Source: a bacterium UBP8_UBA817
GTDB taxonomy: Bacteria; Margulisbacteria; Marinamargulisbacteria; SXXA01; SICP01
Reading direction: 5' to 3'
DNA: 64,000 bases
Assembly: GCA_945888435.1 (NCBI GenBank)
Contig: CAMCZW010000008.1
Span: 2,235-66,234, forward strand
The number at the start of each line of letters is the position of its first letter. Position 1 is the first letter of the stretch. The position numbers and the translations under genes were made by a program. Below are positions 27,269-50,874 of this stretch, piece after piece. Under the pieces are notes generated by a model that did no database searches, was not told the origin of the DNA, and saw nothing but the letters and a program-made list of their open reading frames with translations.

Positions 27269-27868
27269 ATGAAAAAAAACAAAACACTCATCACTATCAT
27301 CACAGCACTGGCCCTAATCGGGCACACCCACTTGGTCTCAGCAATCCAAATCGACGAATCAAGCTCTGAAATTACAATGAACCAAATTCTTCACTTCGGG
27401 TCATTCCCAGACGAAGCAATGAGAGATGCCCTCGGAAAAAACAGCTCTACGCTTAGAGGAACAGGTAATGGGCTAACAATCTTAGGTGGGGGATTCCAAG
27501 GGCTTCAACAAGAAATCGGTGACTTCGCAGACGAAGCACTCAACCCTGATGAAGATGTCTCCGCCGCAGCCACTACCCAAGCACTGGTTTACCCAAATCC
27601 ATTTAGACAAGAAACTGGGGCAAAATTAGGCTATGGATTATCCAAAGACTTAGAAATCGAAATCCAATTTTACGACATGCTCGCTCATCGAATTTTAGAA
27701 AAATCGTTTGAAAGAGGGGCTGTCGGTGGAAAAAAGGGATACAACCTGATCAGCATCGACAAAAACGACTTTGGAACCAATATCGATTTATCAGCCGGAG
27801 TTTATTTCTACTTGATCATCAATGAAGGAAAAGTATTGGCGAAAGGTAAAGCGGCAATCATCCCATGA
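27269..27868 (+). CDS. Small secreted protein with type IX secretion system C-terminal sorting domain (Por_Secre_tail-like)
   Basis: It has an N-terminal signal peptide. The C-terminal ~85 aa carry VYPNPF, ..IQFYDMLAHRI.. and ..AGVYFYLII..KVLAKGK.., which are characteristic T9SS type-A CTD motifs. Confidence 0.6.
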   Translation: MKKNKTLITIITALALIGHTHLVSAIQIDESSSEITMNQILHFGSFPDEAMRDALGKNSSTLRGTGNGLTILGGGFQGLQQEIGDFADEALNPDEDVSAAATTQALVYPNPFRQETGAKLGYGLSKDLEIEIQFYDMLAHRILEKSFERGAVGGKKGYNLISIDKNDFGTNIDLSAGVYFYLIINEGKVLAKGKAAIIP

Positions 27869-28832: not shown

Positions 28833-31800
28833 ATGAAAATAAAATCAATCATTTGGAGTTGTTTTTTAATCTGTTTCCTTTGCAGTCCGATTACTGCAAG
28901 TGTAGAGCTCCAAGTGTCTGGAAGCCTTCCGCCTATTAACGGAACCTTTATTTCAGGTAGTCATGCCGCAACAATTGGGATTTATAAAGGCACTACAGGC
29001 ACCCCCGTATGGTCAGAGCCAATTGCCAGCGTAACATTCAGAAACGGAATGTTTACAACCATTATCGGAAAAGTCACGCCCCTTGAAGCAAGCTATTTAT
29101 ACGTCACAAATCCACATATTGGCATCACTCTCACAGACACCCCTCATACAATTCAATTTGTTAAACTCACCGCATCACCATACGCATTCAAAGCCGCGGT
29201 AGCAGAGCGCGCCCGTAAAGTCTCAGCCAATGTCATCACCGGAACAATGGTTTCAACAGCAAACTTATCAAAAGGGCTATATGTTAAAGCAAGTAGCCAA
29301 AATTACTCCCTATTCGTCAATGCAAATAGCGTAGGGATTGGGAAATCAAATCCAACCACCAAGCTCGATATAAACGGAATCATCAATGCCGACGGATTTA
29401 GAATTAGAGGAGAAGATATCGCAGGAGCTCTCTCCTGGAAACCTAACACCGTCATCACCCAAAATATTTACTTTAATACAGGCCGGGTAGGAATCGGAAC
29501 CTCCATCCCCCGCTACACATTAGAAGTTGCAGGCACCATTAATGCCTCTGAATTATTTACCAAATCTAGAAAAATCTCATCCACATTAGATTGGCAACGA
29601 TCTCCAGTCGCATCAGAAAATTTGTATTTTATTAACCTGGATAAAAAGGTCGGTATTGGAGTAGAAAATCCAAGATCAAAACTTCATGTATTAAACGAGA
29701 TTAGAGTATCCACCAACGTCTATCCTGCGGCGGTTGGTATGATTAGAAGATCCTCTGCAAATAATGAGATTGAAGGTTATACCACCAGGGGCTGGTTACC
29801 CCTCACCGGCGTACGAGGCGGCGGCCAAAAAGATCGTCTAACTTTTTTTACAACTCCTAAAAATATTAGCTCTAGCCCATTATTTCTTCAAAATCATACT
29901 AATTCTTTTGTAGGAGTTGGAGTCTCCGCCCCCAACTCAACACTTCAGATCAAAGAAACCAATTCTAATAAAAAATTATTTCAAGTAACTTCAACACAAA
30001 ATAAAACATTGCTAATGGTTGGCTCTACAGGCAACGTTGGGATCGGAACCCCTACTCCAAACCAAAAGCTAAAAGTAATTGGCAGCCTCGCTGCTGACGA
30101 TATCACACTAAACGGCCTATCTATCCTTCTCGCAGTATCAAAAGACTCTGTATGGCTATTAAACGCAAGTCATAATGTCTACTATATGTTAGGGAATGTC
30201 GGGATTGGCCAAAACAGACCTGAAAGCCTTTTAGAAATTGCCCAAAGAACCAACTCAAATGATGACCCCGCCATTACATTAACCAACGGTAGAAATGTCA
30301 GCTATACCATGGGAGTCGATAACGATAAGCCAGATACATTTAGAGTAGAGTTTGGAACCACGCTTGGATCAACATCTCCATTATTTGTCGCAAAAAATAA
30401 CTTTTTAGGTATTGGCTTAGAAACCCCCTTAGCGCCCCTTCATATCAACGGAAAAATAGGAACTGTTTTTAGCGGGACATTTTACGGAGTCCCAGAAGAA
30501 ACTGCACAAGAACTCGATCCGTTAACCGGTGATGAGCTTATCCCGACTCTTCCAAAAGAAGGTCCTGGGACTCGATTTTTATGGCAACCTCAAAGGGCAA
30601 TATTCAGAGCTGGCCAAGTGGAATCAACATCCCCTTACCTAAGAGGAGAAAATTGGGATAATGAAAACTCAGGCAAATTTTCAAACGCATTTGGACTAAA
30701 TAGTATCGGTAGCGGTAATTACACCACCGTCGCCGGTGGAAAAAATAATATCGGCAGTGGCGCCTATTCGACCGTAGCTGGTGGAGAAAATAACATTTCA
30801 GAAGGAGACTTTTCACTTGCTGTCGGTAAAAATGCGACCGCACTTCACGAAGGATCTTTTATTTTTCTCGACTCATCAGCAGCCCCAACATCAACTATTA
30901 AACACAGTCAATTTTTAGTATTCGCGTCACGAGGTATGGGGATTGGAACAACCCTAACCACGGTAGACGGCATCAGATCAGGCTTAACTATTAAACGAGA
31001 TAAAAGTAGTGGGAACATTCTAAGATTTATCGGTTACCCCACAGAAAATACAGGAACCGCCCTATCATCATCTGGAAATATGATTATCGGATCACTCACT
31101 CCGGGAAACGCCAAATTATCCATAATGGGGGCAATGAACATCGGCGGAACACCAAGAACCCCCTCAGGCAATATTATTACGGCCAATATTAAGCTCAGCG
31201 TCAACCGTGACACCCCCGGTCTTTACAATACCTTCATAAAATCGATTGAAGCCATCACAACACCTGGCATGGCCATTTTAAGTGGCCCAGGGCACATCGG
31301 CATGGCCATTATTCCAAATATGTTTACAGCAGCAGACCTATTAACCGGACTTCAAGTAGGAAGCGGAAGTGTATTAGCTAGTGAGTACATTCAACCCGAC
31401 GGAACCCGCCTTGGAAAAGAAGCCGTCATTGTGTGGTTAGAAAATTCAGACGGAGATGTTTACTTCGTCTCTGGAAACACAGGAATTGGGATGGCATCAC
31501 CAAATAGTATGTTGGAACTATCTAATATCGGGAATACATTGTTTGCAAACCCACAAAATCCGGCAATTAGCTTCACCTCCTCACCCATTAGCTACAGTAT
31601 AGGGGTCAAAAGATCCGGAAACTCAGCACTCCGTATCATTAACGGCATCAATCTAACGACAGACACACCAGCATTTGCAATCCATGATAATAAAATCGGG
31701 ATTAAAACAGATACCCCGCTCGCCATGCTCCATGTCAACGGAAACGCAATTTTTAGAAGTGGCCTTGCTGTTGGAACCACCAATCAACAAGCCAATCAAT

Positions 31801-34800
31801 TGACTGTCCCTAGCGTTATGACCCGAGGCCTTAATATCAGAGGCGACGTCGTCACCTCTAGCGGAGACAAATGGAGCATAACTGGCAATACAGTCTACAA
31901 ATCATTACTTGATCCAGTAGGGATTGGAACAAGCACTCCAAGAACTGACCTTGAAGTCATTGGAATAGTCTCTGCAAACAGTTTTGTAGTTAAAAACCAA
32001 TTCGATGTTTTAGGGAATACCAAAGTCAATCGAATTGATTTCAATCTCGACGAATCTGAATTTAGATTTGAAGTACAAAATGAAAAACTATTTTTGGATG
32101 ATGTTCCTCTATCCGATATTTTATCGAGAGGGTTACCATCCGATACCAGCATTGGCCCGATCGTCATTTGGGTAGTAGATCCAACTCGAGATACTGATCA
32201 AATATTAAGCGAAACCGACATGATCTGGTATTCAGAAACCCCAAGAAGAATTGGCACTTTAGTCTCATCTCATAACATCAATATCGGAAATACCATAAAA
32301 GACTCAAGCACCTCCTTCGAAAAAACAATCCAAGTTAAAGTAGGCACCCAAAGCATACTTGATGGCCTCAGTTTACAGGGCAATATCACTCACGACGGAA
32401 CTCTCTCTCATTCTAAAAATTTCACGCTTAGATCAAGCAGATTAGTAATTGATGAAAGATGGTCAACACCGAGCACGACCAATGTTCAATATGCAAATCA
32501 TATATTTGATATCTACGGAAAATCCGTCAAATTAAAAAATTCCAACGATGGCGCAGGTACCACTAGCATGATTAACCAAGCACCCGCCACGGGAGTTCGA
32601 GTCAACGTCAGCGATGTAAAACCTCAAACCAGCGCAGAAAAAGTATATTCAGCGATCTTTATGGGGGATGTCGGGATTAAAAAATTCCCAGCTGCAATCA
32701 CTGGTGAATATATATTAGACGTTAAAGGGATCGTTTCTGCAAATCGATTTATCATTTCAAAACGACTCAGAATCACTACCATCAATGCCAACAACATTCT
32801 ATTTATTAATGAAGCAACCAATGCAATTGGAATTGGGACATCAACCCCAACCACAACACTAGAAGTAAAAAATGAAATTAAAACAACACATCTTAGAGCA
32901 AGAAGCCTAGATACCAACAAATTAGTAGTCCAAACAAAAAGCTTATATGTCGATAATCAAAAAGTCGGTATGGGCACAATTACACCTGAAAGTTTACTCC
33001 ACATCAGTAAAACACTCACAAGAACACCCACTACTGAATATATTAACTTTTTAATCACAACCAACATCCAAACTACCCAAAAAAATAATAAAGGACTAGA
33101 AATCGTCTTAGCTACTAGCGCCAACTCCACATTTGGGACACTCACAACACCAAAAACGGTTAAAGGTATGGACATCACAATGGCCAATTTTAATAGTCAT
33201 GACAGTGGTCAAGTCATTGGGATTAGCGCCGAAACCAAAAGACAAAACAATGCCTACTCTGCAATTTTCAAAGGGGGTAACGTTGGTATCGGAGTTCCAA
33301 ATCCGGTTTACCCTCTCCAAGTATCAGGGACGATTCGAGCCGACAATGTCCTTCAAATCAACCTCTTAACCCGACAAGAAGCTGCGTCATTTAATTATCT
33401 AAATGTCCTTTCACCAACTGATAATACAATGATTTCAGGGACAGCAATTGCTCGAAATATGGTTGTTCGGAAAATGAAACAAAGCAGCCGTTCTTTTATA
33501 GTGAATAATCAAATTAATCTACCGACTATCACACTTCAGGTCACCGCGAATGGATTTCTTGAAGCCATCAATTTAATTGCAAGCGAAAGCATAAAAACAA
33601 AAGACATGACATCAAGCAGACTACTATCGGGTAAAGATGCTGAGTTTCAAGGCCTTACCATCGGGATTGCCGAAGAAACCTTAGACACAGTGAGAGTTCA
33701 GACAAGCGCAAATGCCACGCAAATAATCGCAGATAAAAGCATTCTCGCAGGCGCTGCAAAAATCAACTCAACTACGCTCAGTGTTCTTCCATATGGATTT
33801 GTCGGAATCAATGAAGCGACACCGAGAGCCATCCTAGACGTCAAACTCACTAACGACACGTTCGTTACACTTCATAACAATAGCAATACCGAAAATACCA
33901 GCGTCGGGATTATCTTCACCCCAGCATCCGCAACCAATATTCGAAATATTGGTTCAGGGATTGTTGCTATCAAGACAACCGCAGATATATCCGCTTCAGA
34001 ATTAGCGTTCATGACAAATCCAGTAAGTAACACACCTCAAGAGAGAATGAGGATGTTTAACGAGGGCGGTATCCGAATCGGAGCCCCGACGGTCTCTGAA
34101 ATAGCCCCTAAAAAGAGTCATCTGCTCGTTAAAGGCACCGCCTTAGTTTCAGGGATAAGTACGGTAAATCTATACGTAAACACAGAAACCATTCGAAACA
34201 ACGGTAATATTCGAATTGCAAACTCAATCAAAATTTTTGACCAAGATTTTATCGTCTCAAGAAATTTAATGACCAATACGGTTCAGCTTCAAGAATTATC
34301 AAGTCATCCCGTCACAAGCAATCAAAAATCAATTTTATACGCCTTCAATAATGGTAGCGCAGCCGGGATTTACTATGGAACCATATTAGAAGACGGAGTA
34401 TTCGCAACAGGAAATATGGAAGATACCTTTACCGGAACAAGAAAAGTAATCCCTGCATTTAATAGTAGCCACAGCATCGTCGATACCAATGTCATGCACT
34501 GGACTACAAGCAATATCAACTCGGTCGGTATTGGAAAATTAACCGTCGGATCTCATATCACATCAAACGTAGTGGGATCAGAAGCATCTCAGTTACATGT
34601 AGCAGGTGTCACCAACTCAGTATTAGCCGATAAAACCCTTAAAAAATTGCAATTAGAATTTAAAGACAGAAACACAGCAGGCTTCAGAACATTCCAAGGC
34701 TATAAATTAACCTCCACATTCGCCACATCAAAGTTAGCCGAAAATGAACAAATGATTGGATTAGACGTCAATCTCACTACACTTGCAAGTGAAAGTAGAC

Positions 34801-37800
34801 GGTTTGGCAACGGCACTATCCTAAGAGGTACAAAATACGCAGCTCTATTCCGAGGTGCTCCAGTAGGAATTGGGAATGCCACACCAAGCAGCCAGCTTCA
34901 TGTAGTAGAAACAACATCAATCAACGCCTTTATCGTAGATGGCCATCAAGCCGGAGTAACGACCAATGCACTCACATTAAAATCAAATGGATACCTTGGA
35001 TTTGGAACCAATGCCCCGGAAGCAAAAGTGAGCATAAAAACACCAGCAACAGATACCACATTTAAAATACAAGGGGTAACAGAAAATATACTGATGCTCA
35101 TCACTAACGGCGGTAAAATCGGAATTAATCAATCTAACCCAACCTATAATCTAGATATTTTGGGGACACTAAAAGCAAAGAAAGCAACCTCAAATATACT
35201 ACTTGGAAAAACAATGAATATTAGAAATCAAGCCCTCGTAGTAGATCAAAACGGCTACGTAGGGATTAATAATTCATCTCCCGCCGCACAATTAGACCTG
35301 ATCAAAACATTCACTACATCTGATAGTAATGCTCTATATAATCTTCAAAAAATAAACTTAACCACATCAGGTGCCATAAGCAAAGGCATCACCGGCGTCG
35401 AGTACAAAATCGCAGTAAACACCAATACTATCGTAGGAATTCCGGCCCAAAGTAAAACAGTCACAGGAGCAAAATTTAACCTCTCTAACCTTGCTGCACA
35501 GTCCATCTCAGCAAAAATCATTGGTCTCCAAGTGCTAGTCACCAGAAATACCAGCCCTGTCGCAATCTTCAATGGAGGAAAAGTAGGAATTGGGGTTACA
35601 GAGCCTACTTATATGCTTCATGTTAATGGCGGCATAAAAGCACGGCATGTCACCCTAAATTCAAGCAGCAGAACACAAGCAACTGCAATCACAACCAACA
35701 CACTGAGTGCAATTAATGCAGGCCTCGGTAATATGACTATTAATAATAATAAACATATCATTATTCGGGGGACACTCCAGGCCGCAAACTTTATCAAAGA
35801 ATTTCCCTTTTTAAATCGAGCCCCAACTGCAAACCCTGTATTTTTACTTGCACAGGTTGTCACTGCAAACCGACTTCGAATCGGAACAAGTAGTATTTCA
35901 ACAACCACCCCAGTCATCATTCAAGGAACTTCCATATTTACGGGCGGAAGCTTAGTGATTAAGGACACTCCAGGAATCCTACAAAATCCATCTGCAAATC
36001 TACACATCTATGGCAACAGCGAGACGAGCCAGAAAGTGGCATTATTGGTTCTTAAAAATAACATTCCTATTCTAAGAGTCGATAAAGTCGGAAATGTGGG
36101 CTCATTTGCTGCCACTCCAGGTGGAAACGTTAACCCAACAGCCAATTTATACCTACAAAGTGATTTTGGAAGAGTAGTCAGCATCGAAGATCCCGTATCA
36201 AAAGTATTTATCGTCAGTCAAAACACATTAGTTACACTCGGAAATCAACGAATAGGACCAATGAGTGTTCTCTCCATCAAACAAAAAACAGCAGATACAC
36301 CAATCCTAAGAGTAGAAAGTGCACAAGTCCCCTACACAATGTTCATTCCAGCATCCCAATTAATAGGGCTAGGAACATCCCTGCCTCTAGCAGCGCTTCA
36401 TGTATCAGGATCCATGATCATCGATAAAGTTGGAACGCCAAAACTCGTTCAAATCAGCCCCACTGGAAGTATTGGCTTAGGAACTCCGGCAACACGTTTC
36501 ACTCTAAGTACATTAGAAAATATGCAACTCTCAAGCAGCAATATGTCTGGAGGAAGTGTCCCAACTGAAATCTCAACATTTACCGGAAATGGAACCCTAA
36601 TGAGAATTGGAACACGCCATCTCTTTTTTGGATTACAACCACATCCAACATTGGTCAACACTTACGACACTCATATTCAAGCATCTTCAGCAAGTGATAG
36701 CCAATATATTTTCAGAAATGGAGATACTGAAATCATGCGTTTAGTCGATACAAAATTAGGAGTTGGAACTTCTCGCCCTTCCGCTAATATTCATGTCGTC
36801 GGAGCATCTGGATCGCTGACTCCATTGTTTAATGTCAGCAGAGGTACCTCCAAAAACATTTTATTTATCAATGCCACCGGAGAAATTGTCATTAATGGGA
36901 CAAGGGCATCAGCAGACATCGATGTAAACGGAAATGTAAGCAGTTTAGGATTCCAAAATCATCCAGATGGAACTGAGTTCACAGCCCCCACCCTCAACGT
37001 AACGAATGCTAAATTTGCAGCAAGAAGTATATTCGATATCATCAAAACAACGAGCGCCAATAAAACTCATAAACTTGAAACGATTCGAATCAATTTAGAG
37101 AGAGACCATTCAAAAGCACTCACTGCATTTGATTTTGGGATTACAGGTGGATCTACATTCCGCAACATCGGAACTAACGCAAATGCTTATGGTCTCCGCA
37201 TCGATGTCAACGGAATCAAATTACCAGATCCAACATTCCAAAATCAAACAGCCTTCAAATATGCAGCGATCTTTAGAGGTGGAAACGTTGGGATTGGAAC
37301 ACTCACCCCAGACGAAGCCACCCTCAACGTAGTAATTACAACAACCAATGGCACAGTACTTCAGTCTGGAATCGTAGTTTCAATGAGAACTACCCCCAAT
37401 ATCATACCAGGAGGGATAGCTGATAGAGGAAGTCAACTTCAATTCGTCATTAACCCATCCTATAACATTCCACTCACTCAACGATTCGCAGTGCCTACAG
37501 ACAGTTTTAAAAGTATTGTCTACACATTAGGACAAGGCCAATTCTACCTTGGAGGATCCACATTTTATGCAACCACCGCAATCTCAAATCAGGTCATGAA
37601 ATCACTTAAAGACAACGGAGTCTTAACCTCCGATGGACGAGTCGACGGAGTGATTACATCATATGCAAACCTTCTCACTCAGCTTAGGAATAAATATTTA
37701 AGTGGATTTGTGCAAGATTACATTACAACCAGTGACGTTGCGAAAGTATTAACTCCGTTTATCATCGAAAACTCATTCACACTTAAAACAAAAAATCTGG

Positions 37801-39209
37801 ATAGTGACGCAAATAAAATCAACTCACCCCTCACCCTATATTCAGGTACCTATCCAATCATCCCGATTACAACAGGGTCCGAAGACTCCATCCAAAAACA
37901 AGCCTTCCAATTTGTAGGCCGTGTCTTAATTAACGCAGGCCCAATTAGTGGAAGCGCACTCGATAATGAAGGCCCTGACAGCTATGGAAACCGAATGCCC
38001 GTATTAATTGTCAGCGGCGACATGAGAGTCGGAGCTAAAGTAAATAAAACTGAAACAGAATTTGCAGGCCAAGGAAAAAAACTAATTTTCTCAGGGGGAT
38101 ATCTTATCAATAGCAGTACGACCGATGGTAATAACGAAGATCCAATGCATATCACAAGAGTCAACACCAACGACCAGGCATCAGACCTGCAAATTTCGAT
38201 TGGAGAAGATCACACCATTAACAATGCCGCATTCAAAATAGGGGTTTCCGAAATAACCAATCAAAAATGGCATACATCCCTTGTCGCAAGAACTTTTTCA
38301 GAAACCTCAAATGCAAATACATCAATGGTCGGTATCGGATTAAACAATCCAACCACAGCCTTCTATGTTAAAGGGGTTGCCTCATTTAATATGAGACCGG
38401 ATGTCACCTCAAATACTACTACATTTGTAACCAACAACATCGCTCACCGCGCTCTCGTTCTCTTTGAAAACACGACTGCCAATGCCAACTCCCTTCTCAT
38501 CAAACATAGTGCGGAAGCTTCTAACGGGGTTGTCGGATCCGACTCTAATTTTATTAGCTTCAAATCATCAATATCACCCACAGGAGCACTGATCAGCTTA
38601 GGCGCAATTGAAGGGAACGGAGAAACAGGGGTTCAGCTCACATCTCCAGAAGCGGACTATGCAGAGTATTTACCAAAACTCTATAACAGCGAAGAAATTA
38701 GCTCAGGTCAAATTGTCGGGGTATTTAACGGCAAAGTCAGCAAGGTCACCAAGGGCGCAGATCAAATCATGGTCACCAGTGTGGCTCCAATTATCGCGGG
38801 TAACTGGCAAGGGGACACTAAAACCAAACAAGTCCTCGTCGCATTCCTAGGCCAAGTTCCAATTAAAATCAGAGGAGCAGTATCAGCAGGAGACTATGTC
38901 ATCCCATCAGGACTTAATGACGGGACTGGAATTGCCATTAAACCCAATGAAATCAACGCCAAAAATAGTGATCTCATTTTAGGCCGTGCCTGGGGGATTA
39001 ATTCAGTCGATAAAGTGAGCACCGTAACAGTGTTACTTGGATTAACAAAATCTCCAGCCCACACTATTTCGTCACAAAAAGTAGAAACATTGGCCGAAAA
39101 ATTAATCACTTTAGAAAGTAATATCGCTCAACTAGAAACAACATATCAAAATGTTCTTCAAAAACAACGTGATCAAATTAAACTTCTTAAAGCAAAGGTA
39201 AAAAAATAA
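28833..39209 (+). CDS. Giant secreted fibre-like repeat protein 1 (3458 aa): signal peptide, ~29 (V/I)GIGTxxPxxxLHVxG-core repeats, conserved C-terminal module + coiled coil
   Basis: It is an uninterrupted 10.4-kb ORF with a signal peptide ([22 protein letters not shown]|S). Repeat cores recur every ~40-150 aa (for example [34 protein letters not shown]). It is paralogous to the 40137 gene. Confidence 0.85.
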
Positions 39210-39211
39210 AA

Positions 39212-40147
39212 ATGATCAAATCTGCAATAAGTGGGTTTTTTAATTACCTCCAATATGAGAAAAAACTCTCAAAAAATTCGCTTGCCGCGTATCAAGTAGA
39301 TTTAGAGCAATTTACAATATATTGTCCAGAAGCAATTTCATCTTCCGTAGATTGTGAAAAATATATCTCGTATATTCAAAATCAAGTCTACAAACCAGCC
39401 ACGCTCAAAAGAAAAGCTTCCTCCATACAACAGTTTTTAGACTACCTCTATCATGATTCTTGGATCACTTCCAAAATTGAACTTCCAATAACCACACCAA
39501 AAATTCCAAAGACACTTCCAAAAGTAATGACCAAAGTCCAAATCGATTCCATTATTTCAGGCCTATTAAAAGTAAGTAAAACCCCATTGAGGGACCAGAT
39601 CGTCATCAACTTACTCTACAAATGTGGCCTCAGAGTTGATGAATGCGTTCATATCACGATAGAAAATATTAATCGCAATCTCACCATCAAAGTAATTGGA
39701 AAACGATCTAAAGAACGGATTATTCCAATCAGCAAAGAAACACTTAAACTTATTAAAAGTTATATCAAAAAAGAACGTACCTCACTTGAGAAATCGCCGT
39801 CTCCGTACTTGATTTTAAACCGGAGAGGCACGAACTTAACCAGGCAAGGGATTACCTTCATAATCAACAAAAATACTTTGGGGCCACTCACAACCCCTCA
39901 TATATTCAGACATAGTTTTGCCACTCATCTTTTAGAACGGGATGCGTCAATCCGAGAAGTACAAGAACTATTAGGTCACAGCTCCATAATTACCACACAA
40001 AAATACACACAGGTATCCACTAAAAAAAGAAGAAGTATCTATGATATCGCACATCCAAGAAGTCGCCATGCAAGAAAATTATTAGATTCAACGATGATAT
40101 GTTTAATGGAAGAACAAAGGAAAAATAAGGTACAATATGGCAAATAG
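39212..40147 (+). CDS. Tyrosine site-specific recombinase, XerD/XerC-like
   Basis: 311 aa with an N-terminal SAM-like core-binding domain (..[15 protein letters not shown]..). Catalytic-domain residues R (GLRVDE), H-x-x-R ([12 protein letters not shown]) and Y (..[15 protein letters not shown]) are present. It starts 2 nt after the stop of giant gene 1 and overlaps giant gene 2. Confidence 0.85.
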
Positions 40148-40172
40148 ATTTCCCACCATTAATTGGAGTCCC

Positions 40173-43100
40173 ATGAGAAAAATTTGCCTCGCATTTTTGA
40201 CAGCACTTTTGTTCACTGCCGGTGCGCATGCACAAAACACACCTGCGTATATTACATTCCAAGGAAGCATGTCTACCGCAACCGGCGGACTTGTAGAAGG
40301 CTCAAAAGAAATCAACTTGGCAATTACAGAAGGTAAAAACGGTCGTAAAACTTATGAGAAAACCGGAGTTACCACACTATTCGTCAATGGAAGTTGTAGT
40401 GTCGTCCTCGGTCCATTAACCACAACACAACTCGACATTGTATCTCCACACCTTCAAATTACATTAGATGGCTTATCCGCCTCATTTCCAATTCCAGCAT
40501 CGGCCTACGCAATTCAAGCCAGACTGGCCGACACTGTTAAAGCAGTTGATGCAGGAACAATCACAGGCACATTTACTTCCACTGTAAATATCAACAGCAA
40601 TTTATTTGTTAAAACCAATGTATTAACCGTTGTCAGCAGAAATGTAGGTATCGGTACAAGCGCACCTGCATACCCATTAGATGTAGTCGGAGAAGTCAAC
40701 GCTACAGGATTCAAAGTCAACGGAAGAGATATTGAAAGCGTCTTATCATGGCAAAAAAATGGAAGTACCCTCTATTACAACACAGGCAGAGTCGGAATCG
40801 CTTCAACAAATCCAACCACCCTACTAGATGTCGCCGGGACCATAAATGCGCGTGAATATCGACTCAATGGCGTCGAGCTCTCTAAAGCACTTGCTAACGA
40901 ACTCGCATGGAAACCAGCAATTAGAGACGGAGATATCTACTTTAACGACGGGAAACCAAATTCATCAGGAAGAATTGTAGGCAGCGTCGGTATCGGGACT
41001 AGTCAACCAGAAAGCCGTCTTGATGTCCGAGGTGAAATTAGAATTGGGGAAGCTGCTTTCGCACCAGGCTTAGGTACCATCCAATATGTCGGGGACGACT
41101 TTTTAGGGTATACCCCAGACGGTTGGGTATCCTTAATCGGGTTACAAGGTCAAGGAAATGCCAACCAAATTACCTACTGGACTGACACAGATAATATCGG
41201 AGGATCCGATAGCTTAGTCTGGGATTATACCAATCAAAAAATGGGGATTGGAACAAGCAATCCAACTGCACAATTAACCGTCAAATCAGTATCTGACAAC
41301 CGAGCAGTACTCAATGTCACAGATAAAAATAATAAAAGCTTACTCTATATCTCGTCTCGAAACGTCGGGATTGGAACAACCACCTCTAACGTTGCACTTA
41401 AAGTTAAAGGGACTGTAGATGCAGAAAATTACTTTTTAAATGGCGTCCCTATTGCGGCCGCATTACGATCATCCTCATTATGGAATTTCCAAAACGATGG
41501 ACGAATTTTTTATAGTAATGGCAACGTTGGTATCGGGACCACAGAGCCTCGAAATTTACTCGAATTAGCCTCTAGTCCATCAGTAAATCCAATCATTACC
41601 TTTGACATTAAAGACGTTAATTTATTTAGTATGGGGATTGATAGCAGAACCCCTTCAGCATTTATTTTGTCTCAAGGAAGTGACCTGTCAAAACCAATTT
41701 TCGTATTCAAAGAAAATAAAATCGGTGTCGGATTAAATAATCCAAGCGCTAATCTTCAAGTCAGCGGCAATGGCGGCATCTTGTTCACGGGAGAATTTGG
41801 ATCGAACGATCAAGTACAAGCGAGCGGAGCCGGGACCAGACTTATGTGGATACCTTCCAAAGCAGCCTTTAGAGCTGGCCACGTCGTCGCAAATCAATGG
41901 GACCATGCCAATATTGGTAATCATTCCGTTGCATTAGGTTACAACGTCACGGCCAATGGGCTCGCATCAACCGTCGTCGGGGGATACGAAAACTGGGCAA
42001 AGGGGGATTACTCCAGTGTCCTAGGAGGATTCCAAAATAGAGCTGAAGGCAATTATTCATTCGCTGCTGGCTACAAAGCCCTTGCTAACCAAATCGGCAC
42101 CTTCGTATGGGCCGATTATTCTCCAACCGCTCCCGTTCAAACATTTTCATCCACACAACGAGACCAGTTCCTAGTCCGCGCAAGTAATGGGGTCGGAATT
42201 AACACCAACCAAACCAATCAGACCTCCTTAACCGTCGCAAGAAAAATTCCAAGCGAATACATATTTAGAGCCATCGGAAATACGAATGCCCCAAATGCAT
42301 TAGTCGTCACAACTTCAGGCAATATCGGAATTGGGACTTCTGACCCTGGCACAGCAAAACTAGCAGTTATTTCTGGAAGAGTAGGAATCGGAACGACAGA
42401 CCCAATTGCCCCACTTACCATAAGTCCTAATGCAACTGATCAATATGTCTTTGTGGCCTACAGAGAAGATGGTAATCCAGCAATGTTTATTAGACGAGAT
42501 GGAAGAATTGCCATCGGTCATGCATTAAACTTCACATTCCCAGACGATGTGACAGTTGCGGTTGCTGGCAGTTTTGGTGGCCCTACATTCAAAAAAGTAG
42601 ACCCTCGTAATCCAAGTGCATCCGTCATTATTGGTGGTAACGCCGGTTCTCCATGGCTAGTTCCATCAGAGAACAACAACAACACCTTCTTCAACAGAGG
42701 ACGAGTAGGGATAGGAACCTCCGCCCCAAGATCACTTCTTGAATTATCAAACGCCAATGGAATCGCTCCAGTTATGACTTTTAATGTTGATAACTCCACA
42801 TTTTATAGTATGGGGGTTACCAAAAATAAATTTACTATTCAACCAACCCGTGGACTAAATGCAAGCTCTCCCCTATTTACGTTAGACGGTAATGGCATCG
42901 GTATTGGAATTGGGTATAAAACACCAAGCGCCTCCCTACATGTCGCAGGATCTTCAATTTTATCTGGAAATATCGCAGTAGGAACCAGCAATGTAAGCTC
43001 TATATTCAATATCAACGTCGGCGGCCGATTAAATACACAGCAACTATTTATCGACGGAGTCGAATACAATCCAGTTCCATCTAAATGGTTAACAGGCGCA

Positions 43101-46100
43101 GGCTCACAAATCTACTATAACGATGGAAACATTGGGATTGGAACATCCACACCAAGATCCAAATTAGAAGTACTAGGAACAATCTCTGCTAATGCCATCG
43201 TCCACTCCGGGACATTCACATTAAATGGTCGTCTAAGAACAACTGAGCTCCACCTGAGAGATACAGTCGCGCCTACACTTAAATACGGTAGAGTTATCGT
43301 TGACGATGATGAATTAATTTATATCGACCCAAGCGATCGAAGAAAAGTACTATCATCTCCACTTCAAAGAGACCGAAGCCTTACCAATTCAGGATATCTC
43401 GCTCACTGGTCAAGTGATTCAGATATAGGAGTCACCAATATTTTATGGGATCGCAGCAAAAAATCGCTTGATGTCTCAGGAAACATTGATTTAAGCAGTA
43501 CATTTTCAGAACCAAACGGAATCAAGATCAAGAGTAAATTATTAATGGGTGTCCCTTCAGGAATCAGCCTAACCACAACACTTAACCATAGTGGCGACTT
43601 AAGAAGAATTAAAGGTTATACAGGTGAAGACATAACCCTGAATATCAACCAAAACTGGGGCAACTCAACCGAAATCGTCACCATTAAAGGGATGAATTTA
43701 GAAATCACACAAGAAGATGCTAGTTTACTCCTTAACAGAGCCCGAGTCGTGGGATTACATGTCGATGTATCCAGCGTCAACGTTAATACCGCACAACGAG
43801 CATCCAAAGCAGCCGCTGTCTTTTTAGGTGGAAACGTTGGTATCGGATTAGAAAACCCGAGAGAAGCCCTTGAAGTTAATGGAACAGTCTCTGCGAACTA
43901 CTTCAACCTAACGGGTGGATTATTTGTTCCAGAATTATCCGTCAACACAAACGCTCTCGTTGCCTATCGAGATTCACTATCATTACTACCAAGAGTGGGA
44001 ATTGGACTCACAAATCCTTCAACCGAACTTGAAGTAAGAGGAACCACATCAACTAACATCATGACAATCACCGGCGGATTAACAGCCACCACGCTCAACG
44101 TTAACAGCGGAACCCTATTCGTAAATAGCGCTGGCCAAATCGGGATCGGAACCACCCTACCCAATGGGCAAATCGAAATTAAAAAAACATTACTATCAAC
44201 CACAGCAGATCCATTTATTGGTGAGAAAATAAACATTGTCATCGATGGCGCAGGGACGGACCAAACGTTTTCATTTAATCAAAATTTATCTGGGTTAAAA
44301 ATTAACTTTGCAAGTAATACAGGCAGCCAAATTGGAAGTGGCAAAAAAGCCATTGGTACTGACATTAATGCAACAAGAATGACCGTCGTAACCCAAAATA
44401 CATTAATTGGGCTTAATGTTGATGTAACAGGCACTGGCGGAAAACGATATGCAGGATTATTTTTAGGCGGAAAAGTGGGGATTGGAGTCACTCAGCCTCT
44501 CGCAGAATTACATGTCAGCGGAAGCATTTTAGCCGATAACCTATTCTTAAATGGAACTTTAGAATCCGAAAGAGCCACCTTTAATAGATTGACCGTCAAC
44601 ACGCTCGCACGCTTCAACGGATCCGTCACAATCAACCAATTAGAAGTACTGGGAACACTCACCGCAAATACATTTGTACTTGAAACAGCCCTTGAAGCCC
44701 AAAATGCAAATTTTGCAACAATTAATGCAAAATCAGCATCAATCAACACCCTTACCAAAACTCGGGATTTAACTATCAGAAGAAAACTAACTGCCCCTCA
44801 AGGAATATTTTCAGGCGGAGTCGGAATTGGAACCCCCGCACCAAGTAGCGGATTAAGTGTTAACGGCCCCCTACTCGCAACCAACATTGCAGCCTCCGAA
44901 ACTCTAAGTCTTACATCCGGCACAATGAATATCCTTGCGGGGACTCTATACGCCATCAATGGAAAAGTAGGGATTGGAACCACTCAACCACAAAACCTAC
45001 TTCACATTAAAACATCACGTGCTACAGAGTTTGATCCAACAGATACTCAAACATGGAATGCAATGAGAATTCAAAATGCAAACGACACTCTTAATACAGC
45101 CGCAAGTCTTTTATTTTTAGTCGATACCAATAGCCCCTCAATTAATATCGGGTCCGCCATTGGTGCGTTGCGTAGCACAGCTTCAAGGGGTGAACACGGA
45201 TCATCCCTATACTTCGCAACTGACCCCGCAACGGATGTCCCCACCATTAGAATGTTCATTTCATCAGAAGGGAATGTCGGGATTGGAACAACGACTCCAA
45301 CATCCATGCTTCATGTCAACGGAAGTTTAAAAGTAGACAATGTGGCGACTCTAAACACTTTAGCAACATCTCTCATTAGATCATCCGGAGAATTGGTCTT
45401 TAGACCATCTGACACCATCATCGTTGAAGGGTATGTCAGTACCAACCAAGTCATTCAAGTTAATAATGGATTAAGCTTCAAACACGCAACAACTATCCCA
45501 ACCCAAAGGACAGGGTATGGAACCCTTTACGTCGATGGAAGAAGTAACGATTTATTCTTCTTAAAACCAAGCGGAGCTTCAGTCAACATTACCCGAGGCT
45601 TTACGGGTAAAGCCTATAGAATCCCATTCTTCAACTCTCAAGGTCAACTTGACGATGACACAGAGCTATACTGGAATAACGCCACAAAAACATTCAGAAT
45701 CGGTACAGCCAATGTAGTAGCAATCGTTGAACACCGAGTAACAGTTGATAATCTAATCAATCAAAGTCTTGCCGCAGAAAAAATCACAATGGACTTTGGA
45801 GATCGAACCACTGCCAGCTCAGCGATATTTAGAGGGCTCCAAATTAATCTCACAGGACAAACACCCTCAGATCCAGATAATTTTGGAAGACTCGCTCAAA
45901 ATGAAACAGCCATCGGACTAGATATCGATCTATCGACACTAAGATCTGAAAGAAGCACTTCCCAATCACTTGGTGGGGTTGTTTTACAAGGATTTAAATA
46001 CGCAGCCCTATTTAGAGGTGGAAGCGTCGGAGTAGGCACTGCAACTCCAATAGCAGGCCTCCATGTAGTCAGCGAAACTGCCGGAAAAGCAGCCTTTAGA

Positions 46101-49100
46101 GTCGATACTACTCGAAAAGATTCTGTAGTTATGACCAATGCATTAGTCGTGAGTTCCAACAGCTTAGTCGGTATCGGAATAGCAGATCCAACCGCTAAAC
46201 TTCATATCAAAGCCAATGATGATCCATTTATTAATGACGCTGACGAAGCGGTTTTCAAAGCAACAAAAACAGATGGTAGTCCACTATTCATCGTTAAAAA
46301 TAATGGAAGAGTCGGAATCGGAACAACATCTCCTGTATCAGCACTCACTGTTTCAGGAAACTTGTTTGCGACCACAGCATCCTTTAATGAAATCACCGCG
46401 ACCACTCTCAACGTCTCCAACGGTGGTTTATTTGTAAACGCAGCAGGAGAAGTCGGATTTGGAACAACTCAACCTCAAGGAAATCTCAGCTTCTCAAAAA
46501 CGATTAATGCCGCCAATATTCCGGCAGCAGGCTTTATCTCTCAAAAAATGTTACTTAACCTCAACGGAGGAACTGACTCGTTAACATTTAACCTTAACCG
46601 AGATATTACCGGCATGGATATCGCTATCCAATCCGCTGCAGCCAGTCAATTAGGCTCAGGAAGCACAGCCCGAGGGCTTTCAATCGATCTAAGGCAAGTC
46701 GCTCTAGACACCAGTAGTAAGATTGTCGGGTTAGACATCGATGTCACAGGCGCAACAGGAACAAGATACGCCGCAATTTTGAATGGGGGACGCGTCGGTA
46801 TCGGGGTAACAAACCCAACCACCACATTAGACGTCTCTGGAGATATTAAAGCAACCGATCTTGATTTAACTGGTCGATTAACCGCAGGTCAAATTACTGC
46901 AAATCAGTTAGTCGTTCTCCAAACATCTATATTTAATGGATCCATTACAGCCAATAATTTAGTCGCCACCACCATTTCTGCAAATAACATCACATTAAGT
47001 GGCTTGTTTAGAATTTCAACCGCATCCATTACAACGCTTAATGCCAATATCGCAACGTTCAATAAATTAGGGATACGAGTCAGCTCCCCACGACAACCAT
47101 TAGATGTCTCTGGAAATGCCATCATCTCAGGCGGATTATTAGGGGTAGGCGTCACTAACCCAACCGCACTCCTTCATATCGGGACATCAACATCAGCAAG
47201 CCCACTCAGAGTCCAAATTAACAATGGCTTCTCAAACCCATACGCACTAGTAGTCAGTGGAAACGGACGTATCGGGATCAGCACTTCAAACCCAGTCGCA
47301 AAATTAAGTATTTCTAAAGTACTAGGAGATACCGATGATTTATTGTTAATCGAAAAATCAGACGCAACCCCTCTGATGAAAATTACCAATGCAGGTCTCG
47401 CAGGGATTGGGACCGCAGTTCCAGTAGCTCAGTTACATATCAAGTCAACCGCAAGCGTATCGCCATTAAGAATTGATGGATCAACATCAAATCCCCTACT
47501 TCATATCGGGCCTACAGGGAACGTCGGGGTAGGAATTAGTAATCCAGCAGCAACGCTCCATGTTAGCGGGAATATCCCTCTGATTGTTGGAAACGCCACC
47601 AACCCATATTCACTCTATGTTGGAGACACCGGACGTGTCGGGGTTGGAACGTCAGCATTAACCTACCGATTCAATGTCAACGGCAAAATGTTAATGGGAT
47701 CATTAGGATCAATCACATTACCAAGTTGGATTGAGTCTAATAACAATATTGGATTAATTTCAGCAAAAGGAGCTGATTTTTCAATCCTAGGTCTAGAAAG
47801 ACGAAGTGGAGGCACCACTGACTATGACTCCGTAATTCAGTGGGGATCAAGTTCAGATGACAGCCTTTTATTTAAAAACAATGCAAATCAAACTATCATG
47901 CAACTCATTGGAAGCGGAAAACTAGGGATTAATGCCACTCCAACCGCAGCACTTCATGTCAGTGGTAATACACCTCTTATCATTCAAAGTGCAAGCCGAC
48001 CATTTGCATTAATCGTCTCAAGCAACGGATTTGTAGGGATTAATACCAATCGTCCTCTAGTTGCCCTCGATGTTAACGGAACCATTCGTGCAAAAGGATT
48101 TAGTGTCACTCATGAAAGTCTGAACGCATCAACCGTCAATATTACAAAACAAATGTCACTTCTAAGAACCGTCACAACTAACATCGCAGTTACAATGCAA
48201 AATATTAGATTAAATCTTGAAAATGATATTAACAATGAAGTAGTAGGCCTAGATATCGTCCTCGACTCTCTGCCAAACGCAGCCCTCGGTGGCGCACGGG
48301 ATTACTCATTATTTAATACCAATGCCTATGGACTTAAAGTCGACATGACGGGGCTTCTAACCACAGACCCCACATTAGGTGGAAGTTCAAATGGCAAAAA
48401 ATACGCAGCCGCTTTCTTAGGTGGCGCAGTGGGGATTGGATTAACTAACCCAGATACCACTCTACAAGTCGTAGGTCCTGCCGGCGGCAATATTGCAAAA
48501 TTTGGAAGTATAGCAGCAGACTTAACAATTAAAGACGAGAATAACGGTACCATCCTTATGTCAATAAGAAATCTAATTAGCCGTGATACGGAAGCGCAAA
48601 AAACACTCTATCTTTCTGGAGATAAAGTAGGGATTGGAGTCGATCCACAAACCGATGAGGCTAGTGTTAAATTTGTAGTCAATGGAGATATTAGAGTTGG
48701 GATGAAAACCAGCGCATCAACCAGCAGTGGTAACCGAGTTTACTTCTCTGGCGGACCAGATTTGAGCCTTACCCAAGACAATGACAACAATAGCCCATTA
48801 TGGATTGGACGAAGCAACGTCAGAGCCAACCAATCTGAATTACTAGTCAATGCCGGTAACGGTGACGGGTTAGATCGATTTGTGGTTGGGTTTACAAAAA
48901 GTACAACATTCAGACCGGTCTTACAGGTTATCCCATCTGTAAATGCCGCGGGTACTCTATATAAAAGTAGAGTGGGTATCAGTGATGGATCTAGCACAAC
49001 ATTTAAACCATCTGCACAGCTCCATGTATTTGGATCAACAAGTGGCAGTGCAAGCAGTATTTCAAGCCACCTTGTCACGTTTGAGAACAACGGCGGTGAA

Positions 49101-50319: not shown

Positions 50320-50410
50320 CACAAAATCCTGCTATCATACTAGGTTCGGAGACTGCCTATAACAGGCACTTTTTGTAAGACTATTTCAAAAAAAGTCGGA
50401 GGCTAACCTA

Positions 50411-50866: not shown

Positions 50867-50874
50867 ACAATTAT

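What the first reader, a model, noticed from the sequence alone, without database searches (positions are those of the whole stretch)
38520..39209. Conserved ~170-aa C-terminal module plus terminal coiled coil shared by both giant proteins (second copy at 49150-49814)
Seen in sequence: conserved blocks [16 protein letters not shown](F/Y)NGK(I/V)S, IAGNW(Q/P)G, (A/F)F(L/F)GQV.(I/V)K(I/V).G and GDY(V/I)[11 protein letters not shown] are followed by ~40 aa with heptad-like periodicity (..[29 protein letters not shown].. and ..LEIKMKELENKQIQIETNFKSEFERQ..). Inference: a tip or receptor-binding domain, or an intramolecular-chaperone/trimerisation domain, as in tail-fibre and endosialidase proteins. 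It lacks the S74 SDxRLK cleavage motif as I recall it, so it may be a new module.
Basis: partly seen in the sequence, partly recalled or inferred. Interest (0 to 1): 0.6.

Follow-up and report, generated by a model that had tools for sequence, protein, structure and literature searches.

The report
Self-cleaving chaperone cap on giant fibres
The C-terminal module shared by the two giant secreted proteins is a divergent relative of the phage phi29 tail-spike "auto-chaperone" (Peptidase_G2 type) with an added coiled coil; it most likely helps three chains assemble into a fibre and then cuts itself off, which is a known device found here in an uncultivated bacterium rather than a phage.

Summary
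Both giant ORFs (28833-39209, 3458 aa; 40137-49814, 3225 aa) end in a ~215-aa module that is 42% identical between them (E 1e-53).

The module is not new. It is a divergent Peptidase_G2-type intramolecular chaperone, as in the phi29 gp12 C-terminal domain:
- Pfam PF11962 scores just below threshold in both copies and above threshold in four of nine relatives tested.
- A 133-sequence family profile hits gp12 at E 1.5e-6.
- The D-x-A-E motif, found in 145 of 146 relatives, aligns exactly with the first residues of the cleaved gp12 fragment.

Predicted self-cleavage sites are A3274|D3275 and A3040|D3041, which would release fragments of about 20 kDa.

The module differs from phi29 in three ways: a family-wide ~45-aa terminal coiled coil, loss of a ~45-aa insertion, and its position on signal-peptide-bearing 3,000-4,500-aa fibres of Margulisbacteria-like genomes. 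S74, T9SS-sorting and receptor-tip readings are not supported.

Cleavage and trimerisation are inferred, not shown. I rate it a new variant of a known kind, of modest interest.

The parts
28833..39209 (+). Giant ORF A (3458 aa). It has a signal-peptide-like N-terminus ([22 protein letters not shown]|S), about 3,200 aa of beta-helical fibre repeats, and the C-terminal module.
   Evidence: ORF list and translation. Full-length paralog of giant B. 17 strict 'VGIG..P...L.V' motifs. The same ORF length is called on independent ENA and Logan contigs.
40137..49814 (+). Giant ORF B (3225 aa). It has a signal-peptide-like N-terminus (…LLFTAGAHA|Q), fibre repeats, and the C-terminal module.
   Evidence: Matches Bdellovibrio fibre Bd2133 (8OND, E 2.1e-5) and the UspA1 head (E 7e-4). 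Sub-threshold bactofilin-like beta-helix hit. 24 strict repeat motifs.
38547..39206 (+). Copy A of the G2-like auto-chaperone module (residues 3239-3458).
   Evidence: PF11962 at 22.9 bits, E 6.4e-5. 42% identical to copy B. Family alignment. The AF2 model has the same order of strands and the terminal helix, but low confidence (pLDDT 64).
38652..38669 (+). Copy A predicted autocleavage site: A3274 | D3275-Y-A-E-Y. It would release a 184-aa, 19.8-kDa fragment.
   Evidence: The motif aligns with residue 1 (DFAEYFE) of the cleaved phi29 gp12 fragment 3GQH. D-x-A-E is present in 145 of 146 family representatives. Coordinates and mass.
39060..39206 (+). Copy A terminal coiled-coil helix (about residues 3410-3458).
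   Evidence: AF2 helix at model residues 179-228, pLDDT 80-91. Heptad test: 36 of 2000 shuffles reach the observed value.
49167..49811 (+). Copy B of the G2-like auto-chaperone module (residues 3011-3225).
49254..49271 (+). Copy B predicted autocleavage site: A3040 | D3041-Y-A-E-Y. It would release a 185-aa, 20.5-kDa fragment.
   Evidence: Same alignment evidence as for copy A. Coordinates and mass.
49668..49811 (+). Copy B terminal coiled-coil helix (residues 3178-3225).
   Evidence: AF2 helix at model residues 182-228, pLDDT 82-90. Family-wide a/d hydrophobic pattern with a periodogram peak at 3.5-3.6. phi29 gp12 has no such helix.

Best explanation
Each giant ORF encodes a signal-peptide-bearing polypeptide that assembles into a very long homotrimeric beta-helical surface fibre. 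Its last ~215 residues are a Peptidase_G2-type intramolecular (auto-)chaperone, homologous to domain D4 of the phage phi29 pre-neck appendage gp12, extended by a ~45-residue C-terminal coiled coil.

Proposed mechanism:
1. Inferred: the coiled coil and the beta body of three chains associate first. This sets the register and caps the C-terminal end, so the triple beta-helix can fold from the C-terminus towards the N-terminus.
2. Inferred from homology: once the trimer is formed, the peptide bond before the invariant Asp of the D-Y-A-E-Y motif is hydrolysed autocatalytically, at A3274|D3275 in A and A3040|D3041 in B.
3. Inferred: the ~20-kDa chaperone trimer is released, or stays loosely bound, exposing the mature distal tip of the fibre.

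Shown here: homology in sequence and predicted fold, exact alignment of the motif with the known gp12 cleavage site, invariance of that motif, and family-wide conservation of the coiled coil. Not shown: trimerisation, cleavage and release.
For: **Sequence**
- PF11962 is the only non-coiled-coil Pfam family hit in both copies (E 6.4e-5 and 8.8e-5).
- Four of nine relatives tested exceed its gathering score, at 26.9-33.8 bits. One relative already carries a precomputed PF11962 annotation.
- A 9-sequence profile finds three structures in the PDB: the cleaved gp12 fragment 3gqh (E 0.0045), the 'chaperon domain D4' of tail spike Dpo31 (E 0.012), and full gp12 6qz9 (E 0.013).
- A 133-sequence family HMM scores gp12 residues 660-854 at 31.1 bits, E 1.5e-6 for a PDB-sized search space.
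- hhalign gives probability 70%, E 3.9e-5.

**Structure**
- The template-free AF2 model of copy B has pLDDT 81.
- Foldseek ranks 3suc and 3gqh second and third, each with probability 1.00.
- In the viral structure library, 40 hits have E <= 1e-3. They include 'Preneck appendage protein', 'Tail fiber protein' and 'Peptidase G2 IMC autoproteolytic cleavage domain-containing protein'.

**Cleavage site**
- Chain 3gqh starts at D of DFAEYFE, preceded in gp12 by ...TWS. This D aligns with D of DYAEYLPK.
- D-x-A-E occurs 153-231 aa (median 187) from the C-terminus in 145 of 146 representatives. The remaining one has D-L-S-E.
- The residue before D is usually small: A 78, G 30, S 11.

**Position**
- The module is always at the extreme C-terminus of proteins of 250 to 4,544 aa.

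**Trimeric fibre context**
- Giant B matches the Bd2133-type beta-helix and the YadA/UspA1-like head.

**Literature**
- The gp12 and Dpo31 D4 domains are auto-chaperones that are cleaved off after trimerisation (PMC13317679, PMC3357383, PMC4690869).
Against: - Both window copies fall just below Pfam's gathering score (22.9 and 22.4 bits against 25).
- The HMM matches cover mainly the first third of the domain plus the GQ(V/I) strand.
- The hhalign probability is only 70%.
- The copy A model is of low confidence (pLDDT 64).
- No oligomer could be modelled.
- No experiment shows cleavage.
- From my own recollection of Xiang et al. 2009, release of the phi29 domain needs ATP. PMC13317679 also refers to an ATP-binding site in the D4 domain. 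A Sec-exported protein would fold where there is no ATP, so at least the release step must differ, or the domain may stay attached.
- The ATP-site residues could not be checked.
Confidence: 0.8

Rival explanations
1. It is a G2-derived trimerisation cap that is retained: a permanent 'foldon' plus coiled coil at the distal end of the fibre, with no autocleavage or no release. The P22 tail-spike C-terminal domain is retained in this way.
For: The homology evidence is the same as for the best explanation. The added, family-wide coiled coil would make a very stable trimer that might not dissociate. There would be no ATP outside the cytoplasm to drive a phi29-like release. PMC3357383 documents auto-chaperone domains that are not cleaved, as in P22.
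Against: D, A and E of the cleavage-site motif are conserved in 145 of 146 representatives, and the residue before D is usually small. That level of constraint is hard to explain for a purely structural loop. Every characterised relative, gp12 and Dpo31 D4, is cleaved (PMC13317679).
Confidence: 0.13
2. It is the receptor-binding tip domain of the fibre and determines what the cell attaches to.
For: It sits at the distal C-terminal end, where phage fibres and Bdellovibrio non-S74 MAT fibres carry their binding tips (PMC10769870). It has a compact beta-rich body.
Against: Binding tips vary between paralogs. This is among the most conserved segments between the two giants. It is shared, with about 25 nearly invariant residues, by more than 6,000 cluster representatives in many phyla. 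Its best structural and sequence matches are chaperone domains, not adhesin tips.
Confidence: 0.04
3. It is a divergent Peptidase_S74 (endosialidase/T5 pb1-type) intramolecular chaperone, as in the S74 subfamily of Bdellovibrio MAT fibres.
For: The position and general role are the same, and like S74 chaperones it ends in a C-terminal helix that could form a triple coiled coil (PMC4690869).
Confidence: 0.01
4. It is a C-terminal secretion or sorting signal, such as a T9SS CTD recognised by the PorV/PorQ-like protein encoded just upstream.
For: Weak T9SS-related hits occur in the two ORFs upstream of giant A: Por_Secre_tail at 23.6 bits and PorV family at 44.9 bits, the latter below its cutoff.
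Against: The modules themselves hit no NCBIfam family at E <= 0.01. T9SS CTDs are ~70-100-aa beta-sandwiches at the very end of the protein, whereas this module ends in a 45-aa helix. Its homologs occur in phyla without T9SS.
Confidence: 0.02

Closest known systems
phi29 gp12 (pre-neck appendage/tail spike) C-terminal auto-chaperone domain D4. This is MEROPS family G2 and Pfam PF11962 Peptidase_G2 (PDB 3GQH, 3GQK, 3SUC).
   Different: Sequence identity is only about 21%, and the window copies score just below the Pfam threshold. The window family lacks the ~45-residue insertion of gp12 (FEWQG...NKNYIP). It adds a ~45-residue C-terminal coiled coil that gp12 does not have; gp12 ends ...GVAIVLVK at the end of the beta body. 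The host protein is a signal-peptide-bearing 3,200-3,450-aa cellular protein, not a cytoplasmically assembled 854-aa virion protein. ATP dependence is unknown.
Domain D4 of the marine podovirus tail-spike depolymerase Dpo31 (PDB 28nb; PMC13317679).
   Same: It is a G2-type auto-chaperone that begins ...GSDYAEYFE and is cleaved off on expression. The family profile detects it at E 0.012.
   Different: It is a phage protein. The chain is 173 residues long, of which only about 38 follow the GQ-strand match, as in gp12, so it probably has no coiled-coil extension. That is inferred from the alignment, not from inspecting the structure.
Peptidase_S74 intramolecular chaperones (K1F endosialidase, T5 pb1, GA-1 appendage, Bdellovibrio S74-MAT fibres such as Bd3182).
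   Same: The job is the same: a C-terminal, trimeric, self-cleaving chaperone for triple beta-helices. [quoted passage not shown] In Bdellovibrio it sits on secreted cellular fibres (PMC10769870).
   Different: The family is unrelated in sequence and body fold, and uses a serine-lysine (SDxxxK) mechanism. The motif and the Pfam hit are both absent here.
Bdellovibrio 'mosaic adhesive trimer' (MAT) fibres (PMC10769870; Bd2133, PDB 8OND).
   Same: The architecture is the same: a signal peptide, a conserved ~130-aa N-terminal domain, a long beta-helix with GxVGIGTxxPxxxLxV-type capping-loop repeats, and a C-terminal chaperone or tip. Giant B and the region upstream of the module hit Bd2133 directly (E 2.1e-5 and 2e-4). 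35 family sequences, giant A among them, share an N-terminal domain.
   Different: These proteins are three to four times longer. They terminate in a G2-type rather than an S74-type chaperone and occur in a different phylum. Homology of the N-terminal domain to the MAT N-domain could not be tested.
Trimeric phage capsid decoration/cement proteins and the phi29 head-fibre gp8.5 base.
   Different: No sequence similarity was detected, apart from one weak PHROG hit annotated 'head scaffolding protein' (E 0.0014). They have no cleavage motif and a different biological role.

Membership tests
Peptidase_G2 / phi29 gp12-type intramolecular chaperone (Pfam PF11962, MEROPS G2) | A match to the Pfam PF11962 HMM at or above the gathering score (25 bits). 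| tested here: not met
   Copy A scores 22.9 bits (E 6.4e-5) and copy B 22.4 bits (E 8.8e-5), both just below 25. Four of nine close relatives reach 26.9-33.8 bits, so the subfamily straddles the curated boundary. This is an operational threshold, not a biological feature.
Peptidase_G2 / phi29 gp12-type intramolecular chaperone (Pfam PF11962, MEROPS G2) | Statistically significant sequence homology to the gp12 C-terminal domain. | tested here: met
   [not shown]
Peptidase_G2 / phi29 gp12-type intramolecular chaperone (Pfam PF11962, MEROPS G2) | The beta-body fold of the cleaved domain (PDB 3GQH). | tested here: met
   [not shown]
Peptidase_G2 / phi29 gp12-type intramolecular chaperone (Pfam PF11962, MEROPS G2) | A cleavage-site motif x|D-[FY]-A-E-[YF], with the Asp as first residue of the released domain and a Glu three residues later. 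| tested here: met
   A|DYAEY is present in both copies. It aligns with residue 1 of chain 3gqh (DFAEYFE). D-x-A-E occurs in 145 of 146 representatives. The catalytic role of the Asp and Glu is recalled from Xiang et al. 2009 and MEROPS; I did not verify it here.
Peptidase_G2 / phi29 gp12-type intramolecular chaperone (Pfam PF11962, MEROPS G2) | Location at the extreme C-terminus of a trimeric beta-helical fibre or spike. | tested here: met
   The module ends at the stop codon in both giants and in all listed relatives. The upstream sequence matches trimeric beta-helix and head structures (8OND, UspA1). The trimeric state itself is inferred.
Peptidase_G2 / phi29 gp12-type intramolecular chaperone (Pfam PF11962, MEROPS G2) | Autoproteolytic removal after trimerisation, and a chaperone requirement for folding. 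| not testable with these tools
   This needs protein expression with mass spectrometry and mutants, or metaproteomics.
Peptidase_G2 / phi29 gp12-type intramolecular chaperone (Pfam PF11962, MEROPS G2) | An ATP-binding site and ATP-dependent release of the cleaved domain. | not tested
   The residue list of the gp12 ATP site was not available in the papers I could read, and Xiang et al. 2009 is not held.
Peptidase_S74 intramolecular chaperone (endosialidase/T5 pb1 type) | A Pfam Peptidase_S74 match and the catalytic S-D-x-x-x-K motif. | tested here: not met
   There is no S74 hit at E <= 1 in either copy and no SD...K in the last 400 residues. No S74 chaperone structure appears among the matches listed.
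T9SS C-terminal sorting domain (TIGR04183 and relatives) | An NCBIfam T9SS CTD model match at the extreme C-terminus. | tested here: not met
   Both modules hit no NCBIfam family at E <= 0.01. The C-terminus is a long helix, not a beta-sandwich.
Bdellovibrio MAT (mosaic adhesive trimer) fibre superfamily | A signal peptide, a conserved ~130-aa N-terminal beta-rich domain, a beta-helix with capping-loop motifs, and an S74 chaperone or alternative tip. | tested here: inconclusive
   Signal-peptide-like N-termini are seen in the sequence. 35 family sequences, giant A among them, share a conserved N-terminal domain, but its homology to the MAT N-domain could not be tested. The beta-helix repeat hits Bd2133. 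The terminal chaperone is G2-type, not S74.

The most novel reading that the evidence does not exclude
The module defines a large, essentially uncharacterised, cell-encoded clade of G2-like auto-chaperones. It has 6,361 50%-identity cluster representatives at E <= 1e-3, and the window's own copies score just below the Pfam threshold.

This clade has fused the phi29-type beta body to a trimeric coiled-coil 'registration' helix. Unlike phi29 gp12, it works outside the cytoplasm, so cleavage and release would have to be ATP-independent. It caps Sec-exported fibres of 3,000-4,500 residues.

In Margulisbacteria-like genomes these fibres sit in an ancient conserved locus: giant, tyrosine recombinase, giant, CxxCxxCC protein, YchF. 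They could be the lineage's main attachment organelles, analogous to the Bdellovibrio MAT fibres.
Probability: 0.3. Interest if true: 0.55.

Novelty: new variant of a known kind. Interest (0 to 1): 0.35.

Why it matters
The result turns two 10-kb hypothetical genes into a testable model. They would encode trimeric surface fibres several hundred nanometres long whose assembly is nucleated and proof-read by a self-removing C-terminal cap.

It gives an exact predicted cleavage bond and fragment mass for proteomics. It also marks where the mature distal tip lies, which is where a binding specificity should be sought.

More generally, the phi29-type (G2) auto-chaperone is not mainly a phage device. 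A coiled-coil-extended version is widespread on cellular fibres of Margulisbacteria, Bacteroidota, Verrucomicrobiota, Planctomycetota and others. Some members, including both window copies, fall below the current Pfam threshold.

If these domains work in the periplasm or at the surface, they also raise a mechanistic question: how is a G2 chaperone released without ATP?

Tried and rejected
Translating 49150-49814 as given yields stop codons because it is out of frame by one base. I used 49125-49811 instead.
- **Single-sequence phmmer against the PDB.** It found only a spurious coiled-coil hit, Hook3 at E 0.86. A profile was needed.
- **NCBIfam.** Nothing for the modules.
- **PHROGs.** Only an unannotated family (phrog_34132) and weak hits.
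- **tblastn against 50,697 phage genomes.** No match at E <= 1e-3, so this subfamily has no close relative in sequenced phages.
- **Pfam on the full-length giants.** Only a sub-threshold bactofilin hit.
- **Word-indexed protein search with the module.** It returned only 9 proteins. The exhaustive HMMER search was needed to see the family.
- **Word-indexed search with a 16-sequence alignment of the giants' N-terminal domain.** It returned a single fragment, so a link to the Bdellovibrio MAT N-domain remains untested.
- **Xiang et al. 2009.** The paper could not be read. A search for the catalytic residue names found nothing relevant. The Dpo31 paper does not list the ATP-site residues.
- **The afdb50 fold library.** It was unavailable.
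- **Long DNA repeats between the two giants, as possible recombinase substrates.** Only the degenerate repeats that encode the VGIGT..P...L.V motif were found. A cassette-switching idea therefore has no support.
- **S74, T9SS-CTD and receptor-tip readings.** I considered and rejected them; see the rival explanations.
- **First attempt at the genome scan.** It failed because alignment A1 contained fragments. It was repeated with a 4-sequence alignment.
Full report
**1. The observation**

The window holds two very long ORFs on the + strand: 28833-39209 (3458 aa, giant A) and 40137-49814 (3225 aa, giant B). A 311-aa ORF lies between them.

The second, 49150-49814, is one base out of frame and gives stop codons. 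Read in frame, the two tails align at 42% identity and 61% positives over 223 residues with 9 gaps, E = 1e-53. All the quoted blocks are there, apart from small differences: copy A has [10 protein letters not shown] and GQIVGV.

The giants are paralogs over their whole length: 30% identity over 2978 aa, then 36% over the last 403 aa. The module is therefore not the only shared part. It is, however, one of the best conserved and least gapped windows, at 46%.

**2. Context**

The surrounding genes are ordinary chromosomal ones: SepF, MazG, an RseP-type M50 protease, YchF, an M16 peptidase and a PopT-like transporter. This is not a prophage.

The same recombinase protein is encoded on 18 public contigs. 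The four inspected all show the same giant-recombinase-giant arrangement, and they include an NCBI MAG, GCA_947493445.1.

The closest genomic relatives of the module are in Margulisbacteria and Marinamargulisbacteria assemblies, at 56-42% identity. Both giants begin with signal-peptide-like sequences, read directly from the sequence.

**3. Identity from sequence**

Pfam gives one family other than coiled-coil noise in both copies: PF11962, 'Peptidase_G2, IMC autoproteolytic cleavage domain'. It scores 22.9 and 22.4 bits against a gathering score of 25. Of nine relatives scanned, four pass the threshold at 26.9-33.8 bits, three fall just under, and two have no hit. The positive control, phi29 gp12 residues 660-854, scores 311.8 bits.

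A 9-sequence profile finds three relevant PDB entries:
- the cleaved gp12 C-terminal fragment, 3gqh (E 0.0045);
- the 'chaperon domain D4' of the marine tail spike Dpo31, 28nb (E 0.012);
- full-length gp12, 6qz9 (E 0.013).

A profile built from 133 family members scores the gp12 C-terminus at 31.1 bits, E 1.5e-6 for a PDB-sized search space. hhalign gives E 3.9e-5 and probability 70%.

**4. Identity from predicted structure**

A template-free AlphaFold2 model of copy B has mean pLDDT 81. It shows a beta-rich body followed by one long helix.

In the viral model library, 40 hits have E <= 1e-3. Among them are 'Preneck appendage protein', 'Tail fiber protein' and 'Peptidase G2 IMC autoproteolytic cleavage domain-containing protein'.

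The copy A model is weaker (pLDDT 64), but it has the same order of strands and the same terminal helix.

**5. The cleavage motif**

Chain 3gqh, the fragment released from gp12, begins at the D of DFAEYFE. In gp12 this is preceded by ...GGNTWS. In every alignment this D pairs with the D of DYAEYLPK.

Among 146 cluster representatives, 145 carry D-x-A-E at 153-231 residues (median 187) from the C-terminus, and the last has D-L-S-E. The residue before D is mostly A, G, S or N.

By homology, the predicted scissile bonds are:
- A3274|D3275 in giant A (nt 38652-38654 | 38655), releasing 184 aa, 19.8 kDa;
- A3040|D3041 in giant B (nt 49254-49256 | 49257), releasing 185 aa, 20.5 kDa.

That the Asp and the Glu three residues later are the catalytic pair is my recollection of Xiang et al. 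2009 and MEROPS G2. I could not read that paper here.

**6. The coiled coil**

gp12 stops at the end of the beta body (...GYGVAIVLVK). The window family continues for a median of 58 residues after the last conserved glycine of the body, and 129 of 133 members have at least 35 residues there.

Over this tail the fraction of L/I/V/M/F per alignment column peaks at spacings of 3 and 4. The periodogram is maximal at 3.5-3.6 residues.

The heptad tail is thus a conserved part of this subfamily and an addition relative to phi29. In role it resembles the central triple coiled coil that ends S74-type chaperones (PMC4690869), which are otherwise unrelated. The family also lacks the ~45-residue insertion of gp12 between the GF/AG and N..P positions.

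**7. The family**

An exhaustive HMMER search of 1.84 billion representatives finds 6,361 proteins at E <= 1e-3 and 1,682 at E <= 1e-30. The module is at the extreme C-terminus in all those listed.

Of the representatives first returned by that search (146 of the 150 listed; the other four were already held), 37 are at least 2,400 aa long (up to 4,544), and 97 are under 1,000 aa.

Genome hits spread from Margulisbacteria to Saprospiraceae, Flavobacteriales, Chitinophagales, Verrucomicrobiota, Planctomycetota, Gemmatimonas and Lysobacterales. No sequenced phage has a close relative by tblastn. Where source databases name these proteins, they are almost all 'hypothetical protein'.

Thirty-five family sequences, giant A among them, share a ~130-aa domain right after the signal peptide. 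Giant B also matches the Bdellovibrio fibre Bd2133 (8OND) and the UspA1 head.

This signal peptide, N-domain, beta-helix and C-terminal chaperone layout is that of the Bdellovibrio 'mosaic adhesive trimer' fibres. Thirteen of those end in an S74 chaperone that cleaves itself (PMC10769870). Here the cap is G2-type.

**8. How it most likely works**

This section is inference unless stated otherwise.
- After export, three chains are brought into register by the C-terminal helices and the beta bodies.
- The trimeric cap templates folding of the triple beta-helix towards the N-terminus.
- Once the trimer is formed, the bond before the invariant Asp is hydrolysed and the ~20-kDa cap leaves, exposing the mature tip.

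For phi29 gp12 and Dpo31 it has been shown that the homologous domain is needed for soluble trimers and is cleaved off (PMC13317679, PMC3357383). For this family only the homology and the conservation pattern are shown.

One step cannot simply be copied. As I recall it from Xiang et al. 2009, phi29 releases its cap with ATP, and PMC13317679 refers to an ATP-binding site in the D4 domain. ATP is absent outside the cytoplasm.

**9. Rivals**

- **A retained, uncleaved trimerisation cap.** This is the main alternative (about 0.13). The near-invariant D-x-A-E argues against it.
- **A receptor-binding tip.** This is unlikely, because the module is the conserved part of the proteins, not the variable part.
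- **S74.** Excluded by the lack of a Pfam hit, motif or fold match.
- **A T9SS-type sorting signal.** Suggested only by weak T9SS-like hits in the two upstream ORFs. The modules match no NCBIfam family, and the C-terminus is a helix.

**10. Verdict**

The chaperone reading is right, and the 'new module' reading is not. The module is a divergent, coiled-coil-extended, cell-encoded variant of a known phage-type auto-chaperone.

Xiang et al. had already proposed, as I recall their abstract, that bacterial adhesins might mature like gp12. S74-capped cellular fibres are published. A specialist would therefore not be very surprised.

What is new is the defined variant, its abundance, its place on 3,000-4,500-aa exported fibres, and the ATP question.

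Noticed in passing
window 39212-40147 (+); related loci L026, L029, L031-L035, L044, L048, L075, L079: A XerC/XerD-like tyrosine recombinase lies between the two giants. It scores 242.8 bits on TIGR02224, below the equivalog cutoff of 335. It starts 3 nt after the stop of giant A and overlaps the start of giant B by 11 nt. A 29-38% identical recombinase gene follows a module-bearing gene in 11 related loci, and four contigs carry tandem pairs of module-bearing genes. No long DNA repeats between the giants were found that could act as recombination substrates.
   Followed up: partly
window 49819-51969 (+); loci L006, L007, L011-L018, L020-L025, L027, L030, L047, L073: The genes downstream of giant B are syntenic across many related genomes. 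They are a CxxCxxCC (PF03692) protein at 49819-50319, an unannotated 151-aa ORF at 50411-50866, and YchF at 50875-51969. Matches were found in 17, 14 and 13 loci respectively. The giant-fibre locus therefore looks like an old, vertically inherited chromosomal feature rather than a mobile element.
   Followed up: partly
window 27269-28818 (+): Two ORFs lie directly upstream of giant A. One is 199 aa with a borderline T9SS Por_Secre_tail match (23.6 bits against a cutoff of 23). The other is 317 aa with a sub-threshold PorV/PorQ-family match (44.9 bits against 90). Pfam finds nothing in either. They may be an outer-membrane partner for the fibres, but the T9SS assignment is weak for a Margulisbacteria-like genome.
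   Followed up: partly
window 37335-38003 (+), giant A residues 2835-3057: Giant A has a ~220-residue non-repetitive stretch with no counterpart in giant B; the BLASTP alignment breaks there. It lies about 220-440 residues upstream of the predicted cleavage site, near what would be the mature distal end. This makes it a candidate specificity or binding domain. It has no Pfam match.
   Followed up: no
window 41898-42092 (+), giant B residues 588-652; window ~30684-30890 (+), giant A from residue 618: There are YadA/UspA1-head-like repeats (e.g. SVALGYNVTANGLASTVVGGYENWAKGDYSSVLGG). In giant B they match UspA1 head structures 3ntn and 3pr7 at E 7e-4 and 3e-3. A similar-looking stretch in giant A was seen by eye only; giant A had no PDB match at E <= 0.01. 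This is a second type of trimeric module within the fibres.
   Followed up: no
window 28833-39209 and 40137-49814 (+): The fibre bodies are punctuated by a 'G(N/K)VGIGTxxPxxxLxVxG' motif, with 17 and 24 strict matches. The motif is also visible as degenerate 20-60-nt DNA repeat families, and it is the part that matches the Bdellovibrio Bd2133 beta-helix capping loops. Giant B residues 2232-2276 give a sub-threshold bactofilin hit (27.5 bits against 27.9).
   Followed up: partly
window 28833-29300 and 40137-40640 (+); proteins P0010-P0064, P0128, P0058: A conserved ~130-aa domain directly follows the signal peptide. It is shared by both window giants, 32 other giant relatives and two short (585- and 670-aa) relatives. 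It has no Pfam family. Its position parallels the conserved N-terminal domain of Bdellovibrio MAT fibres, but homology between the two was not testable.
   Followed up: partly
[not shown]
   Followed up: no
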